IMG/VR virus record: IMGVR_UViG_2651869695_000008
Reading direction: 5' to 3' (one strand)
From: a virus
Lineage: Duplodnaviria > Heunggongvirae > Uroviricota > Caudoviricetes
DNA: 45,692 nucleotides
Shown here: in pieces, positions 5,908-20,486 of the stretch
Position numbering within the stretch: position 1 is the first letter of the stretch
Layout of the letters: the number at the start of each line of letters is the position of its first letter
The notes under the pieces: model-generated
What the model was told of the DNA's origin: nothing
What the model saw: only the letters and a program-made list of their open reading frames with translations
Databases searched by the model: none
Made by a program: the position numbers and the translations under genes

Positions 5908-6668
5908 TCTTCTCCTCCTCTGTTGATTGTCGCAGCCCGGATTCAAATGCCGCAGCCGCCCAGGCGGGCGGTTTAAGACCAGCCGCGCGGCGCTCCATCG
6001 TTTCACGAACCTGCTGGGCAAAAATTTCCTGATAGTCGTCACCGCGTTTCGCGCACTCTTTCTCGTAGGTGCTCAGTCCGGCTTCTATCAGCATCACCGC
6101 TTCCTGTACTTCTTTCAGACCATCGATGGCCATACGACCGGAGCCTATCCAGTCACAGTTCCCCCAGGCGCTGCGGGCTTCCTGAAAGCTGAAACGCGCT
6201 TTTGAAGGTAACGTCACCACGCGGCGAACGATGGCCTCTTCCAGCCAGCACAGAAACATCTGGCTCGCCTGACGGGATGCGACGAATTTTCGCCGCCCCA
6301 TAAAGTACGCCCACGACTCGTTCGCACTGGCCCGTGCCGTGGAGTAGCTCATCTGGGCGTAATTCCGGGAAAGCTGCTCATACGAGACACCCAGCCCGGC
6401 AGCGATATACCGCAACAGTGACTGCTCAAACACGGAGTAGCCGTTATCCGTGTTCTGAGCCGTCTGCAGGTTCAGTGAGTCCCCCGGCATCAGGTGCGGC
6501 ACTTTTGCGCCTCCCAGCCGGACCGGTGCTGCGGCGTAATACGCGGCAATTTCACCAATCCAGCCGGTCAGCCTGTCCCGCTGCTCCTGACTGTTAGCGC
6601 CCAGAATAAAATCCATCGCTGACTGCGTATCCAGCTCACTCTCGATGGTGGCGGCATACATCGCCTTT
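5888..6668 (-). pseudogene. B: Portal protein B, C-terminal half (about 257 codons), separated from its N-terminal half by the satellite insertion
   Basis: MYAATIESELDTQSAMDFILGANSQEQRDRL... through ...STEEEKSDSRAA matches the lambda gpB C-terminal region; upstream is non-lambda DNA. Confidence 0.85.
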
Positions 6669-6741
6669 ATGAAAAGACAGGAAAAAATAAAATTTAAAAA
6701 CAGTACATTACGAATGCTCAGACCTATCGTTTAAAGGAGTC

Positions 6742-6763
6742 GCAATACACACTGCAATACACG
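6742..6763 (+). repeat. Two direct copies of GCAATACAC(A/G) near the left end of the satellite; candidate integrase arm-type sites
   Basis: Same motif occurs three times at 17377-17429 near the other end of the element. Confidence 0.5.
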
Positions 6764-7103
6764 ATTATTTATAAGATGAGCGGCATCCGTCATAAAGCTG
6801 GTGGATGCTTTTTCTATGCATATATGCACAGTTTTAGTGGGCGTTAATGTCGATATAGGGATCCCCATATCGAGATTGGATACCTGGCTTTTTTCCGGTT
6901 AACCTTTAATCAGGCTGGTGGGCTTTACCTGTTTTGTATGAGTGGTCATCATGACCATGTCATAACAAAAACCCCATATTCGTGGTTTTTCTGTGTCGGG
7001 CTATTCTGTCGTTGCTGTGCTGATTTGGCTGGTGGGCTGAATCATCATTACGGCGATGCAGCTATGTAGACGTTCCGGCCTCCTCAAATTGAGGATTGTG
7101 GAA

Positions 7104-7255
7104 GAATCAATGGGTTAGTCTTACTTTCCCGACATCCCCCAATGGGGGTTTTCGAAACAATCAATAGCTTAGGCTTACTTCCCCGATTTCCTGCATTGCA
7201 GGTTTTCGAAATAATCAATGGGTTAGGCCATCGTGCAATTTTGCACTTTGCCAGC
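7104..7255 (+). repeat. About 2.7 tandem copies of a ~56-bp repeat, each with a short GC hairpin followed by TTTTCGAAA
   Basis: Units begin AATCAAT(G/A)G(G/C)TTAGG; hairpins CCCCCAATGGGGG, CCTGCATTGCAGG, GTGCAATTTTGCAC differ in stem sequence but stay self-complementary; a fourth hairpin CCCCCAGTGGGGG at 7308-7320. Confidence 0.5.
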
Positions 7256-7476
7256 CAGCGCAATGTCGCGTTATCAGTCCTCAGATGTGAGGGATGTAGC
7301 CAGCTTTTCCCCCAGTGGGGGATATCCAGCACCGACGGCTTAACTGTGCGTGCCAGCACAAGGTAGCCTTGAACTACTTACTGCATCCCATCTTACAGGC
7401 CGTGCCTTCCTGCTTAACTTTTTGCAATGCAACAAGTCAGCCAGCGCAATTTTGCGTTATCGGGAATATCAGCAAG

Positions 7477-7758
7477 TTACCGCCGCAATCGTTCCGGCTT
7501 CTTCCACTGGTAAGTGTTTTTCGCGCTCTCCCTCCGTTGTTGAGAACGGCGACGATATGCCAGCAACTCAAGGACTCTTGTTCGTATGTTGCGCATATCC
7601 ACGCCGTTAAGCTCAATACCGTCACGGCGCATCACCTCAGCCACTACACGCACATAATTATCTGCGGTCACGCTGTCCGGCTGCGTGGCCTGTTCGTCAT
7701 GCTGCTTGCTGATTCCACAAGCACGGCGGATTAATCGCAGTATTTCGGATTCAGTCAT
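7477..7758 (-). CDS. Hypothetical protein (93 aa), last gene of the satellite packaging module
   Basis: ORF only; basic C-terminus; no recognisable motif. Confidence 0.35.
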   Translation of the reverse strand: MTESEILRLIRRACGISKQHDEQATQPDSVTADNYVRVVAEVMRRDGIELNGVDMRNIRTRVLELLAYRRRSQQRRESAKNTYQWKKPERLRR

Positions 7759-7769
7759 AGCGTACTACG

Positions 7770-8312
7770 TTACTTATCTTTATTCGGCTGCAACTTATCC
7801 GGTACGTTTCCGGCAGTTTCCATCAGATAATCGGACAGCATCAGCGGTATGTTTTCGTCAAGTTTTGCGCATGCGTTACAGGCTCTGATAACTTCTTTTT
7901 TCAGTCCATCCAGCATAGACGGCTTCATGTCGGGAAACTTCCTTGTCATGGCAAGCGGCAGGCTGTCCATGATTGAAGAAATCTGACTCGCCAATTTTGA
8001 AAGCACGTATATACAAAACGCGGTATCAATAACGTCGCCGCGTTCGCGCTCGTTTTTAAGCTCCTGCGCCTCTGCCTGTGCTGTCAGCAATCTGATCCTG
8101 ACTCGTAGGAGTTCATCATCATCAATCTCGCCTTTGTCGTCTGTAATCTGGTTAATTGCATTGCTAACCCGATTGTCTATTACGCTGGCAACATCATAAA
8201 ACGCCTCGCGGCCTTTACGTTCAACGGGAGTCACTCCCCACTTGTCGAACGCTGTCGCACTTACACGGCAGCTTTGCGCCATGTTTTTTTTGTTCATCAG
8301 GTGCGATTTCAT
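7770..8312 (-). CDS. Nu1-like small terminase subunit of the satellite (candidate packaging-redirection protein)
   Basis: C-terminal region DTAFCIYVLSKLASQISSIMDSLPLAMTRKFP... parallels lambda Nu1 ETAFCTFVLSRIAREISSILDGIPLSVQRRFP...; N-terminal DNA-binding region divergent; lies directly downstream of a cos site. Confidence 0.75.
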   Translation of the reverse strand: MKSHLMNKKNMAQSCRVSATAFDKWGVTPVERKGREAFYDVASVIDNRVSNAINQITDDKGEIDDDELLRVRIRLLTAQAEAQELKNERERGDVIDTAFCIYVLSKLASQISSIMDSLPLAMTRKFPDMKPSMLDGLKKEVIRACNACAKLDENIPLMLSDYLMETAGNVPDKLQPNKDK

Positions 8313-15800: not shown

Positions 15801-15856
15801 CGCGTTTTTACCTTATAGACAAAAAACCCCTCGTGATGAGGGGCATTATTTACTGG

Positions 15857-16114
15857 TTATTGCTGTTTTGTTTTTCCAGGTTTCCATCCAGGATGCCACT
15901 CACCACGGATCCATGCCTGAACCTCTGAAAGTCGATACCCTGCAGCACGTTCACCGATCTTGATACGTCGCGGGAATTTACCTGCCTGCTCCATTTTCCA
16001 GCGTGTTGAGTTTGCCAGCGTGGTAAGTGCTATGCACTCTTTTTCACGAATGAACCGATCAATGTCCTTCATTGTGCGCAAATCGTTTTCATCAACAAGA
16101 GAATAAATTGCCAT
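15857..16114 (-). CDS. alpA: AlpA-family regulator or excisionase adjacent to integrase
   Basis: 85 aa; ALTTLANSTRWKMEQAGKFPRRIKIGERAAGYRLSEVQAWI fits the AlpA pattern. Confidence 0.7.
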   Translation of the reverse strand: MAIYSLVDENDLRTMKDIDRFIREKECIALTTLANSTRWKMEQAGKFPRRIKIGERAAGYRLSEVQAWIRGEWHPGWKPGKTKQQ

Positions 16115-16115
16115 A

Positions 16116-17357
16116 TCACACCACCTCTTTATTAAGCTCGATAACGTTGTTGTTAAATCCTGCTATCGTATTAAGGTAATTAACCCACATATTAAGCACC
16201 TCAAGTTTTTTCTTTATATGCCTGCTTTTATTGTAAACACCAGCAACCCCTTTCACTTTATGACCTAAAAGAAGTTCGACAATATAAGGATCCGCCCCCA
16301 TATCATTAAGCGTAGTGGAAAATGTGCGCCTGAAATCATGTATGCACCACAAGCCATTAGTATCATGACCAAGACGCCTGCATATTCTGTTTGCAGCCCC
16401 TGTTATTGTCGCCCTTTGCAAAGCACAACCGACAACATAACCGCGATTTTTTGTTTCTGCGTAAAGATTAACGATCCATTGTTTTATTCCGTCAGGAACA
16501 GGCCTTACTATAGCCTCCTTGTTTTTGCTGTGCTCTTTTGGGACTGTCCATACCCAGTTTTTTAAATCCCATTCGTCCCAGGTGGATAGCCTCGCCTCCT
16601 GCTGTCGGCAACCAAACACCAGGCAGATAACCATTATTCTTCGGTTATATATTGATGACAGAGTTAGCAAATTATTACCGTAAGCATAAGACCATACATC
16701 AGCGGTTTCATTGATATTAAGAACGCGATCCCTTATACCGGATGAGCGCCCGACATAACTTACGTTAATATCTCCAAAGGGATCGCACGCGATGTATTGC
16801 CTGACGCGACAAAAACGCAACGCCTGTTTGATATCAAGAAAAATTGCACCAGACATAACAGGCGCATTTTTTTTGATCCTGTCAAAGACGGTAAGCCATG
16901 TGTGTAATTTGCACTGTTCTATAGCCATATCACCGATATAGGGGAAGATATGCTTTTCAAATCGTTTTATTAAATATTCATGCTCTTTTCTGGCTGTTGT
17001 GGCGTGATTGTCGTACCAGTAAAACAGCGCATCCCTTACGGTCACTGGTTGCATAGTTTTTTCGGCAGCAAGTTTTATTTGCCTGCGGGGGTCCAGATTT
17101 TCAGCCAGCCATTCACGGCACTGATCACGCATGCGCCTGGCCGTTGCAAGAGACATGTCAGGATAGCGACCAAGTGTAAGCCATACCGGAGGGGATTCCC
17201 TGCCACCAAGACGATAGTAAAAAACAAAGCTGATCCCCCCAACCATGCTTACACGCACAGACAACCCGCGCCCATCCGCTATTGTTTTTTGTTTGTCCTG
17301 CCGTTTTCCGACAAGACTCTTTAACAGTTTGTCACTGAGTTTGTTTTCAATAGCCAT
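16116..17357 (-). CDS. int: Tyrosine site-specific integrase (P4-like)
   Basis: 413 aa; C-terminal catalytic region with HDFRRTF...LLGH...Y; next to element boundary and arm repeats. Confidence 0.9.
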   Translation of the reverse strand: MAIENKLSDKLLKSLVGKRQDKQKTIADGRGLSVRVSMVGGISFVFYYRLGGRESPPVWLTLGRYPDMSLATARRMRDQCREWLAENLDPRRQIKLAAEKTMQPVTVRDALFYWYDNHATTARKEHEYLIKRFEKHIFPYIGDMAIEQCKLHTWLTVFDRIKKNAPVMSGAIFLDIKQALRFCRVRQYIACDPFGDINVSYVGRSSGIRDRVLNINETADVWSYAYGNNLLTLSSIYNRRIMVICLVFGCRQQEARLSTWDEWDLKNWVWTVPKEHSKNKEAIVRPVPDGIKQWIVNLYAETKNRGYVVGCALQRATITGAANRICRRLGHDTNGLWCIHDFRRTFSTTLNDMGADPYIVELLLGHKVKGVAGVYNKSRHIKKKLEVLNMWVNYLNTIAGFNNNVIELNKEVV

Positions 17358-17376
17358 TAAAAGCCCTCAAGAGATT

Positions 17377-17429
17377 TGCAATACACACCCATCCCGATCG
17401 CCAATTTGCAATACACATTGCAATACACA
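17377..17429 (+). repeat. Three direct copies of TGCAATACACA upstream of int; candidate arm-type integrase sites
   Basis: Same motif as at 6742-6763 at the other end of the element. Confidence 0.55.
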
Positions 17430-17559
17430 AAACCGCGAAAAACTGGAAGGGTGATGAACGGTCATCAAAAGCATGGAAAACGACATTCCAGACGCAGCAA
17501 GGGTTTCAGTGGAGTTGGCGAACGATGCGGGCAACTACGGTGAGATGATAGACATAAAT

Positions 17560-20486
<2,927 letters not shown>

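What the first reader, a model, noticed from the sequence alone, without database searches (positions are those of the whole stretch)
6668..17565. Phage satellite integrated inside the portal gene of its host prophage
Lambda portal gene B is split into an N-terminal part (17560-18387, about 276 codons) and a C-terminal part (5888-6668, about 257 codons) that together make the 533 residues expected for gpB. Between them sits about 10.9 kb with the hallmarks of a P4/PICI-type satellite: a tyrosine integrase next to the right junction, TGCAATACAC arm-type repeats at both ends, AlpA regulators, a P4-type primase with iterons, and its own cos site. The junctions share a 13-bp imperfect direct repeat AAGGCGAT(G/T)TATG, so site-specific excision should restore an in-frame B (at most one Met to Ile change). 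This would make the satellite a reversible switch on helper capsid assembly. Satellites normally use chromosomal att sites; targeting a structural gene of the helper itself is not something I know to be described.
Basis: partly seen in the sequence, partly recalled or inferred. Interest (0 to 1): 0.9.

Follow-up and report, generated by a model that had tools for sequence, protein, structure and literature searches.

The report
Known satellite embedded in prophage portal gene

Summary
The lambda-type portal gene B is split at window 17558-17565 and 6660-6667 by a 10,898-bp element. The element carries an integrase, AlpA, a Bro-N protein, a primase with an iteron origin, SSB, gpE-like and gpD-like head proteins, its own cos and a Nu1-like small terminase. 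All are co-oriented with the helper late operon. Deleting the element in silico rebuilds a 533-codon B gene with Met277 intact. That rebuilt 300-bp junction occurs uninterrupted, at 100% identity, in other E. coli genomes.

It is not new. Tommasini, Mageeney & Williams (2023, PMC10111431) described helper-embedded PICIs (HE-PICIs), including the site group B:Phage_portal_2:241 with identity block 'aaggcgat'. Their published attL matches the window 163/163 and attR 118/119. Two of my 99.8-99.9% identical database hits (CP011416, CP006834) are listed there by name. All 64 complete E. coli genomes that carry this integrase end have it joined to the portal fragment, so this is the element's regular att site.

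Excision, packaging and virions remain untested for this site group. Novelty: already known. Interest: low.

The parts
17506..18387 (-). Helper portal gene B, N-terminal fragment: 276 portal codons, then 17 satellite-derived codons and a stop
   Evidence: Pfam Phage_portal_2 profile 2-237, E=1.8e-62
17553..17565 (-). Satellite attL. The 8-bp identity block AAGGCGAT is at 17558-17565.
   Evidence: the published attL of group B:Phage_portal_2:241 matches window 17459-17621 at 163/163
17377..17428 (-). Integrase-proximal arm-type sites: the doubled HE-PICI motif (17407-17428) plus one extra single copy (17377-17386)
   Evidence: On the - strand the TGTATTGC cores start +134.5 and +146.5 from the block centre. 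The paper gives 132 +/- 2 bp downstream.
16116..17357 (-). Satellite tyrosine integrase (413 aa)
   Evidence: Arm-DNA-bind_3 + Phage_integrase; 54% identical over full length to the integrase of the founding HE-PICI 11capE; same RefSeq protein (WP_000963723.1) as in CP011416, which the paper lists
15857..16114 (-). alpA (85 aa), excisionase/regulator
   Evidence: Pfam Phage_AlpA, E=5e-14
15826..15844 (-). Terminator-like hairpin between alpA and the Bro-N gene
   Evidence: consensus scan only
15222..15800 (-). Bro-N / anti-repressor-like protein (Bro zone)
   Evidence: Pfam Bro-N, E=5e-20; PHROG anti-repressor
13287..14393 (-). Small ORFs ahead of the primase: Icd-like, three hypotheticals and DUF4222
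   Evidence: RefSeq annotation of identical copies; Pfam DUF4222; PHROGs of unknown function
11536..13290 (-). Primase/helicase (D5_N, DUF5906, Pox_D5), 584 aa
   Evidence: 43% identical to the 11capE primase
11302..11519 (.). Putative replication origin: 10 GGTAGA/TCTACC iterons
   Evidence: 10 observed, 0.09 expected
10518..10940 (-). Single-stranded DNA-binding protein
   Evidence: Pfam SSB
9260..10300 (-). Satellite major capsid protein, gpE family (annotated start at M30 of the 375-aa ORF)
   Evidence: Pfam Phage_cap_E, E=4e-41; 42% identical to helper gpE; 99% identical to the 11capE capsid protein
8909..9250 (-). Satellite head decoration protein, gpD family
   Evidence: Pfam HDPD; 37% identical to helper gpD
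8514..8897 (-). Second AlpA-type HTH regulator (127 aa) just upstream of cos
   Evidence: Pfam Phage_AlpA; matches PDB 8c3t, AlpA family; no sequence match to a solved Rpp structure
8380..8500 (-). Satellite cos. cosN is at 8446-8457. The flank upstream of cosN (- strand) is conserved with the helper; the cosB side downstream of it diverges.
7770..8312 (-). Satellite small terminase, Nu1 family: C-terminal half conserved with helper Nu1, N-terminal half divergent
   Evidence: Pfam Phage_Nu1 matches only residues 70-152; 36% identical overall to helper Nu1, with similarity concentrated in residues 85-171; PHROG terminase small subunit
7477..7758 (-). Hypothetical protein (93 aa), phrog_1561
6741..6762 (-). 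Distal doubled arm-type motif
   Evidence: On the - strand the TGTATTGC cores start -97.5 and -85.5 from the block centre. The paper gives 81 +/- 2 bp upstream.
6655..6667 (-). Satellite attR. The identity block AAGGCGAT is at 6660-6667. The 13-mer is AAGGCGATGTATG.
   Evidence: the published attR matches window 6600-6718 at 118/119
5888..6667 (-). Helper portal gene B, C-terminal fragment (257 codons from Met277)
   Evidence: Pfam Phage_portal_2 profile 238-354
18384..21221 (-). Helper cosN (21210-21221), Nu1 (20487-21032), A (18587-20512) and W (18384-18590), upstream of the interrupted B
   Evidence: annotation of homologous loci
43204..44414 (.). Helper lambda-type integrase (43204-44274, +) and the prophage/chromosome junction at the classical lambda attB (core GCTTTTTTATACTAA, 44348-44362)
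   Evidence: the published attL of helper group PBP|ybhC matches 44252-44414 at 163/163

Best explanation
The 10,898-bp insert is a helper-embedded phage-inducible chromosomal island (HE-PICI) of the published site group B:Phage_portal_2:241. It sits in a lambda-like prophage integrated at the classical lambda attB (ybhB/ybhC).

**Shown by sequence**
- Its tyrosine integrase recombined an attP carrying AAGGCGAT with the same 8-mer at codons 274-277 of the helper portal gene. This split B without supplying a replacement sequence.
- All core satellite genes point the same way as the helper late operon.
- Precise excision rebuilds a wild-type B.

**Shown experimentally only for the related HE-PICI 11capE (Tommasini et al. 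2023) and inferred here**
- After SOS induction the whole composite excises and replicates.
- The satellite excises later, restoring the interrupted late gene.

**Inferred mechanism for this copy**
1. Q-antiterminated late transcription from the helper runs through Nu1-A-W-B' into int-alpA. Integrase and excisionase are therefore made only in the helper's late phase.
2. No portal, and so no helper procapsid nucleation, is possible until the satellite has left.
3. The satellite replicates from its iteron origin using its own primase and SSB.
4. Its Nu1-like TerS has a divergent N-terminal DNA-binding half and a conserved C-terminal half, the region that in lambda Nu1 binds TerL. This TerS would read the satellite's divergent cosB and recruit helper gpA to the shared cosN, steering packaging toward satellite DNA.
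5. The gpE-like and gpD-like proteins may alter or build capsids. This role is untested.
6. Tails, portal, protease and lysis functions come from the helper.
For: - **Split gene and att sites:**
- **Gene content:**
- **Match to the published group:** attL 163/163 and attR 118/119. Supplementary File 1 lists identity block 'aaggcgat' and element coordinates CP011416.1/3698288-3709185 and CP006834.2/1830842-1841738. These are my hits H11 and H20, at 99.9% and 99.8% identity over 11,051 bp.
- **Doubled motif** tgTGTATTGCantgTGTATTGCa, present on both sides at about the published spacing.
- **Integrase** 54% identical to that of 11capE; capsid protein 99% identical.
- **Regular att site:** 64 of 64 complete E. 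coli genomes with the integrase end have it fused to the portal fragment.
- **Empty site** present at 100% identity.
- **Helper junction** identical to the published PBP|ybhC helper group.
- **cos:** cosN and the flank upstream of it are conserved; the cosB side diverges.
- **TerS** C-terminal half conserved with helper Nu1. Lambda TerS residues 100-181 bind TerL (PMC6739421).
- **Induction data for 11capE:** PMC10111431.
Against: - No experiment exists for this site group. Excision, its timing, replication and packaging are all inferred.
- Tommasini et al. could not recover virions or plaques even for 11capE and its helper. They note that many HE-PICI helpers look truncated.
- The window lacks the tail-fibre end of the prophage, so helper integrity cannot be judged fully.
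- The paper cites a report that knockout of a PICI capsid gene was tolerated. A required role for the gpE/gpD homologues is therefore doubtful.
- EcCICFT073 is packaged in phage-sized capsids.
- The promoter scan is too crude to show that int lacks its own promoter.
Confidence: 0.9

Rival explanations
1. This is a one-off illegitimate insertion of a PICI whose normal att site is chromosomal. It has simply inactivated a decaying prophage.
For: HE-PICI integrases do occasionally go off-target: the paper reports 28 such cases. Many helpers appear truncated.
Against: - All 64 complete E. coli genomes with this integrase end carry the same integrase-end/portal junction.
- The paper lists dozens of B:Phage_portal_2:241 instances. 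Their helpers sit at three different chromosomal sites: tRNA-Arg, icd and ybhC.
- The doubled arm motif lies at fixed spacing around an AAGGCGAT core that matches the portal sequence.
Confidence: 0.02
2. This is an assembly artefact that joins a satellite contig into a prophage.
For: None specific. The two cos sites and the duplicated late-gene homologues could in principle confuse assemblers.
Against: Both junctions appear at 99.6-100% identity in 53-64 independently sequenced complete genomes from different hosts and countries. The junctions show an 8-bp att identity block and an in-frame split.
Confidence: 0.01
3. This is a genuine HE-PICI but a stranded one. In this strain the helper, the satellite or both are no longer inducible, so the insertion acts as a permanent knockout of the portal gene and not as a switch.
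For: No virions or plaques were obtained for the only tested HE-PICI/helper pair. The authors note truncated helpers and 'potentially abandoned HE-PICIs'. The window does not include the whole helper.
Against: - All satellite ORFs are intact and 99.9% identical across many strains.
- Both B halves remain in frame and restore a complete 533-codon ORF.
- Within the window, helper early, lysis and head genes are present at the expected sizes.
- The helper att junction is intact.
Confidence: 0.2
4. This is a P4-type satellite. It would use a P2-like helper and happen to reside in a lambdoid prophage.
For: The primase belongs to the D5_N/DUF5906 family shared with P4 alpha. An Icd-like gene and AlpA are present.
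Against: - No Psu, Sid or Delta families were found among the satellite proteins scanned.
- No C4/isrK immunity RNA, even at E<=1.
- cosN is identical to the lambdoid helper's.
- The late-zone genes are gpE, gpD and Nu1 homologues, which are lambda-type.
Confidence: 0.02

Closest known systems
HE-PICI site group B:Phage_portal_2:241 (Tommasini, Mageeney & Williams 2023, NAR Genom Bioinform, PMC10111431), e.g. Eco2613.11 in CP011416 and Eco4623.11 in CP006834
   Same: - Same element: 99.8-99.9% identity over 11 kb.
- Same 10,898-bp size.
- Same 'aaggcgat' identity block, with attL and attR flanks that match the published ones (163/163 and 118/119).
- Same doubled arm motif and same gene order.
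- Same helper group at lambda attB (PBP|ybhC).
   Different: Nothing of substance. The helper early region in this window is a mosaic: the best match in any complete genome is 98.1% identity over 89%.
Eco567.11capE in E. coli NRG857c (the founding, experimentally induced HE-PICI at site E:Phage_cap_E:80)
   Same: - Same four-zone architecture.
- Integrase 54% identical, primase 43%, capsid protein 99%.
- Co-oriented with the helper late genes.
- Disrupts a head gene without carrying a replacement sequence.
   Different: - It targets the capsid gene E, not the portal gene B.
- 11capE lacks terS and carries HEPN/DUF262 cargo in its tail. This element has a Nu1-like terS and an ORF-poor tail with three 54-nt repeats.
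- Only 11capE has induction data.
EcCICFT073 and other Gram-negative cos PICIs (Fillol-Salom et al. 2018, 2019)
   Same: - int-alpA-...-primase-...-capsid homologue-cos layout.
- cosN and cosQ are kept while cosB is changed.
- Lambdoid helper.
   Different: - EcCICFT073 sits in a chromosomal site and acts only in trans.
- It redirects packaging with Rpp bound to helper TerS and has no terS. Here there is a Nu1-like TerS, and no Rpp was detectable by sequence.
Capsid-forming PICIs (cf-PICIs)
   Same: Both encode their own major capsid protein and small terminase.
   Different: cf-PICIs encode a complete head module (portal, protease, connectors, TerL). This element has only gpE, gpD and Nu1 homologues, and it interrupts the very portal gene it presumably relies on.
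Regulated gene integrity / phage regulatory switches (B. subtilis skin in sigK, Listeria phi10403S in comK)
   Same: An integrative element splits a gene, and precise excision restores it at a defined time.
   Different: Here the interrupted gene belongs to another mobile element, the helper phage. The switch presumably serves the satellite and not the cell.

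Membership tests
HE-PICI (helper-embedded PICI), Tommasini et al. 2023 | Integrated within, and disrupting, a late gene of a prophage, with no replacement sequence carried in attP | tested here: met
   Portal B is split 276/257 codons. The N-terminal fragment runs into 17 foreign codons and a stop.
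HE-PICI (helper-embedded PICI), Tommasini et al. 2023 | int, alpA and primase co-oriented with the interrupted late gene | tested here: met
   All lie on the - strand, as do Nu1, A, W, B, C, D and E of the helper.
HE-PICI (helper-embedded PICI), Tommasini et al. 2023 | Integrase belongs to the clade around the 11capE integrase | tested here: met
   54% identity to 11capE Int across the alignment, E=3e-170. The RefSeq protein is the same as in the listed member CP011416.
HE-PICI (helper-embedded PICI), Tommasini et al. 2023 | Doubled motif tgTGTATTGCantgTGTATTGCa about 81 bp upstream and about 132 bp downstream of the attP centre | tested here: met
   Doubled copies at 6741-6762 and 17407-17428. 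The downstream copy begins about +132.5 (the TGTATTGC core at +134.5 less the 2-nt 'tg' prefix). The upstream cores start at -97.5 and -85.5 and the copy ends about -78. The exact measuring convention of the paper is unknown.
HE-PICI site group B:Phage_portal_2:241 | Identity block 'aaggcgat' at about position 241 of the Pfam Phage_portal_2 profile, with group-specific attL and attR flanks | tested here: met
   Published attL matches 163/163 and attR 118/119. The split falls at profile positions 237/238 in the current Pfam version.
HE-PICI (helper-embedded PICI), Tommasini et al. 2023 | Four ordered zones: Integration, Bro, Replication, Late | tested here: met
   Order is int-alpA / Bro-N / Icd-like...primase-ori-SSB / gpE-gpD-HTH-cos-TerS.
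HE-PICI (helper-embedded PICI), Tommasini et al. 2023 | Inducible: the composite excises and replicates, then the satellite excises precisely and restores the late gene | not testable with these tools
   Only in-silico excision was possible. Experimental data exist for 11capE only.
Gram-negative PICI | About 10-15 kb; int + alpA + primase/ori; cos related to the helper's; lacks tail, lysis and most head genes | tested here: met
   10,898 bp. Gene content. cosN is identical to the helper's.
Gram-negative PICI | Helper-phage-dependent induction and high-frequency transfer | not testable with these tools
   No experiment was possible.
P4-like satellite | Psu, Sid and Delta capsid-size and transactivation genes, CI/C4 immunity RNA, P2-type helper | tested here: not met
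   No such Pfam or PHROG families. No C4/isrK in Rfam at the gathering threshold or at E<=1. The helper is lambdoid.
cf-PICI | Own portal, protease/scaffold, head-tail connectors and TerL in addition to MCP and TerS | tested here: not met
   Only MCP, decoration protein and TerS homologues were found.
Rpp-type packaging redirection | An Rpp homologue (144-153 aa wHTH dimer) encoded near cos | tested here: inconclusive
   The 127-aa HTH next to cos matches only an AlpA-family structure in the PDB sequence search. No fold comparison was run.

The most novel reading that the evidence does not exclude
Unlike the one HE-PICI tested experimentally (11capE, in gene E, no terS), the portal-embedded B:241 elements combine three things: (i) control over the protein that nucleates procapsid assembly, (ii) their own Nu1-type TerS with a helper-compatible C-terminus and a private cosB, and (iii) their own gpE and gpD homologues.

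The most novel reading not excluded is an ordered interlock. No head of any kind can start until the satellite has excised and amplified. The first portals would then be met by satellite capsid and terminase proteins, giving satellite-biased and possibly small particles.

In addition, the unexcised composite holds two co-oriented cos sites 12.8 kb apart. These could generate aberrant packaging substrates. None of this has been tested for any portal-site HE-PICI.
Probability: 0.25. Interest if true: 0.45.

Novelty: already known. Interest (0 to 1): 0.12.

Why it matters
As a discovery it does not matter, because the configuration, the site and this very element were published in 2023.

It keeps value as a clean, complete example of a HE-PICI in a lambda-attB helper that looks intact across the part covered by the window. 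That would make it a convenient system for experiments still missing for the family:
- the timing of satellite excision relative to late transcription;
- whether portal interruption throttles the helper;
- what the satellite's TerS and its gpE and gpD homologues do;
- whether particles are ever produced.

Tried and rejected
- **P4-style immunity RNA:** looked for C4/isrK in the Bro zone with Rfam, at the gathering threshold and at E<=1. No hit in the element.
- **Rpp homology:** tested whether the 127-aa HTH next to cos is an Rpp homologue. Only an AlpA-family PDB match was found.
- **TerS against PDB sequences:** no match to any solved Nu1 domain. This is uninformative beyond showing that the N-terminus is divergent.
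- **Source genome:** tried to identify it from the helper early region. The best complete-genome match is only 98.1% identity over 89%, so the strain is not in the collection.
- **Met-to-Ile outcome:** rejected, because the mismatch lies outside the 8-bp identity block.
- **Illegitimate insertion and assembly artefact:** rejected on distribution.
- **Promoter/terminator scan:** too crude to decide whether int has its own promoter.
- **Portal-specific literature search:** the first search missed the key paper. The broader satellite search found it.

Full report
**1. Observation**

ORF 17506-18387 (- strand) encodes residues 1-276 of a lambda-type portal protein, followed by 17 unrelated codons and a stop. 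ORF 5888-6661 (- strand) encodes the remaining 257 residues, beginning at the Met of KAMYAATIES. Pfam Phage_portal_2 covers profile positions 2-237 in the first piece and 238-354 in the second.

The junctions carry AAGGCGATTTATG (17553-17565) and AAGGCGATGTATG (6655-6667). That is 3 window matches at <=1 mismatch against 0.16 expected. The perfect identity block is the 8-mer AAGGCGAT.

Removing the 10,898 bp between the blocks in silico gives a 533-codon ORF that reads ...AIVKAMYAATIES.... The restored 300-bp junction occurs uninterrupted at 100% identity in other E. coli chromosomes. It is present in 3119 of 5426 complete genomes at >=80% coverage and in 82 phage records at about 99% identity. 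Because the G/T difference lies outside the identity block, the expected product keeps Met277.

**2. Anatomy of the insert**

All core genes are on the - strand, the same orientation as the helper late operon. In order they are:
- tyrosine integrase 16116-17357, with arm-binding and catalytic domains;
- AlpA 15857-16114;
- a terminator-like hairpin 15844-15826;
- a Bro-N/anti-repressor-like protein 15222-15800;
- a divergent YlcI/YnfO-family ORF (14583-14888, + strand);
- an Icd-like ORF and several small ORFs;
- DUF4222 (13287-13586);
- a D5_N/DUF5906 primase 11536-13290;
- an intergenic stretch with 10 GGTAGA/TCTACC iterons in 284 bp (0.09 expected);
- a small ORF and SSB 10518-10940;
- a gpE-family capsid protein 9260-10300, 42% identical to helper gpE;
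- a gpD-family decoration protein 8909-9250, 37% identical to helper gpD;
- a second AlpA-type HTH 8514-8897;
- cos, with cosN at 8446-8457 identical to helper cosN at 21210-21221;
- a Nu1-family TerS 7770-8312;
- a 93-aa hypothetical 7477-7758;
- an ORF-poor tail of about 800 bp.

The TGCAATACAC repeats occur only at the element ends. A doubled copy lies at 6741-6762, and a doubled copy at 17407-17428 is accompanied by a single copy at 17377-17386.

Alignment of the two cos regions shows near-identity from about 60 nt before cosN (read on the - strand) to about 25 nt after it. Beyond that, the cosB side diverges. The satellite TerS resembles helper Nu1 mainly in its C-terminal half. Pfam Nu1 matches only residues 70-152.

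**3. Surroundings**

The helper is a lambda-like prophage. Upstream of B lie cos-Nu1-A-W, and downstream lie C, D, E and the head-completion and tail genes. The early region resembles annotated N, cI, cro, cII, O, P, nin, Q and lysis genes in related prophages. A lambda-type integrase lies at 43204-44274.

The lambda att core GCTTTTTTATACTAA is at 44348-44362. The 163-nt published attL of the helper group 'PBP|ybhC' matches 44252-44414 exactly. The tail-fibre end of the prophage lies outside the window.

**4. Distribution**

The 11-kb region is found at >=80% coverage in 53 complete E. coli genomes, at 99.6-99.9% identity in those listed. The isolates come from humans, poultry, pigs, dogs, beef and other sources. 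A 400-bp probe from the integrase end finds 64 genomes. A 400-bp probe spanning the integrase-end/portal junction also finds 64 at >=80% coverage. Every copy in this collection is therefore in the portal gene.

The helper early region of this window has no better match than 98.1% identity over 89%. The same satellite thus sits in mosaic helpers.

**5. Comparison with what is known**

[quoted passage not shown] The main points of the paper are:
[quoted passage not shown] - These include three sites in B, plus a putative fourth.
- It identifies a doubled motif tgTGTATTGCantgTGTATTGCa at about 81 bp upstream and about 132 bp downstream of the attP centre.
- It defines a four-zone gene organisation.
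- It interprets the arrangement as 'regulated gene integrity' that serves the satellite.

Its Supplementary File 1 lists group B_Phage_portal_2_241 with identity block 'aaggcgat'. The listed elements include CP011416.1/3698288-3709185 and CP006834.2/1830842-1841738. These are my hits H11 and H20. Mapping those coordinates onto the window gives 6664-17561, which is the same 10,898 bp within the ambiguity of the identity block.

The published attL and attR strings match the window 163/163 and 118/119. The integrase is 54% identical to that of the founding element 11capE and the capsid protein is 99% identical. The same element is listed in helpers at tRNA-Arg, icd and ybhC.

**6. Mechanism**

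*Shown by sequence.* The split is site-specific and in frame, with no replacement sequence. The satellite is co-oriented with the late operon. It has its own origin, cos and TerS.

*Shown experimentally for 11capE only.* The composite excises precisely and replicates. Satellite excision follows at about 2 h and restores the interrupted gene. No virions were recovered.

*Inferred for this copy.*
- Helper late transcription reads into int-alpA.
- Excision restores B, so portal synthesis and head nucleation are delayed until then.
- The satellite replicates with its own primase, iterons and SSB.
- Satellite TerS, with its divergent N-terminal half, recognises the private cosB.
- Its conserved C-terminal half recruits helper gpA. 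Lambda TerS residues 100-181 bind TerL (PMC6739421).

This is a variation on the Rpp strategy of EcCICFT073, which keeps cosN and cosQ but changes cosB.

The role of the gpE and gpD homologues is open. The paper cites a report that a PICI capsid-gene knockout was tolerated, and EcCICFT073 uses phage-sized capsids. By the authors' own argument, the roughly 58-kb composite exceeds lambda's packaging limit.

**7. Rivals**

- Illegitimate insertion and assembly artefact are excluded by the 64/64 junction count and by the published series.
- P4 membership fails: no Psu, Sid or Delta, no C4/isrK RNA, and a lambdoid helper.
- cf-PICI membership fails: no portal, protease or TerL.
- A 'stranded' state, with a non-inducible helper or satellite, cannot be excluded for this strain.

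**8. Verdict**

The claim that this is undescribed is wrong. The element is a member of a published group, so novelty is 'already known' and interest is low. What remains open is experimental: excision, timing, packaging and particle formation for portal-site HE-PICIs.

Noticed in passing
window 7075-7236: Three tandem 54-nt repeats (72% and 65% identical to the first). Each contains a short hairpin whose stem sequence differs between copies while pairing is kept: CCTCCTCAAATTGAGGA, CATCCCCCAATGGGGGT, TTCCTGCATTGCAGG. On the + strand the second and third hairpins are followed by TTTTCGAAA. They lie in an ORF-poor satellite tail of about 800 bp. There is no Rfam match. Fragments of the tail recur in more than 1000 E. 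coli genomes.
   Followed up: partly
window 28346-30118 (+): A 590-aa ORF with no Pfam hit, oriented against the surrounding nin-region genes of the helper. It is annotated only as hypothetical (WP_001505174.1) in a related prophage. It could be a moron or a defence gene.
   Followed up: partly
window 8446-8457 and 21210-21221: The unexcised composite has two co-oriented cosN sites 12.76 kb apart. If the satellite failed to excise, terminase would meet a second cos after 12.8 kb. The complementary interval would be roughly phage-sized. The consequences for packaging were not explored.
   Followed up: no
window 965-1087 (-): Strong match to the Rfam isrC Hfq-binding sRNA (135 bits) inside the helper's tail-gene region.
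   Followed up: no
window 38662-38720 (+): Lambda cIII thermoregulator element (Rfam, 88.5 bits). This is consistent with a lambda-like early-left operon.
   Followed up: no
window 21300-45692: The helper early region matches no complete E. coli genome better than 98.1% identity over 89%. The closest relatives are integrated next to mdtA with a different integrase. The satellite, by contrast, is 99.9% identical across more than 50 genomes. The same satellite therefore rides in mosaic helpers.
   Followed up: partly
L003 9704-11420 (E. coli NRG857c, 11capE): At the tail position where the window element has only non-coding repeats, the founding HE-PICI carries HEPN and DUF262 genes, a likely defence cargo. 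The satellite tail thus looks like a variable cargo slot.
   Followed up: no
window 15826-15844 (-): A GC-rich hairpin plus a T-run immediately after alpA and before the Bro-N gene. It may be a regulated terminator separating the integration zone from the rest of the satellite.
   Followed up: no
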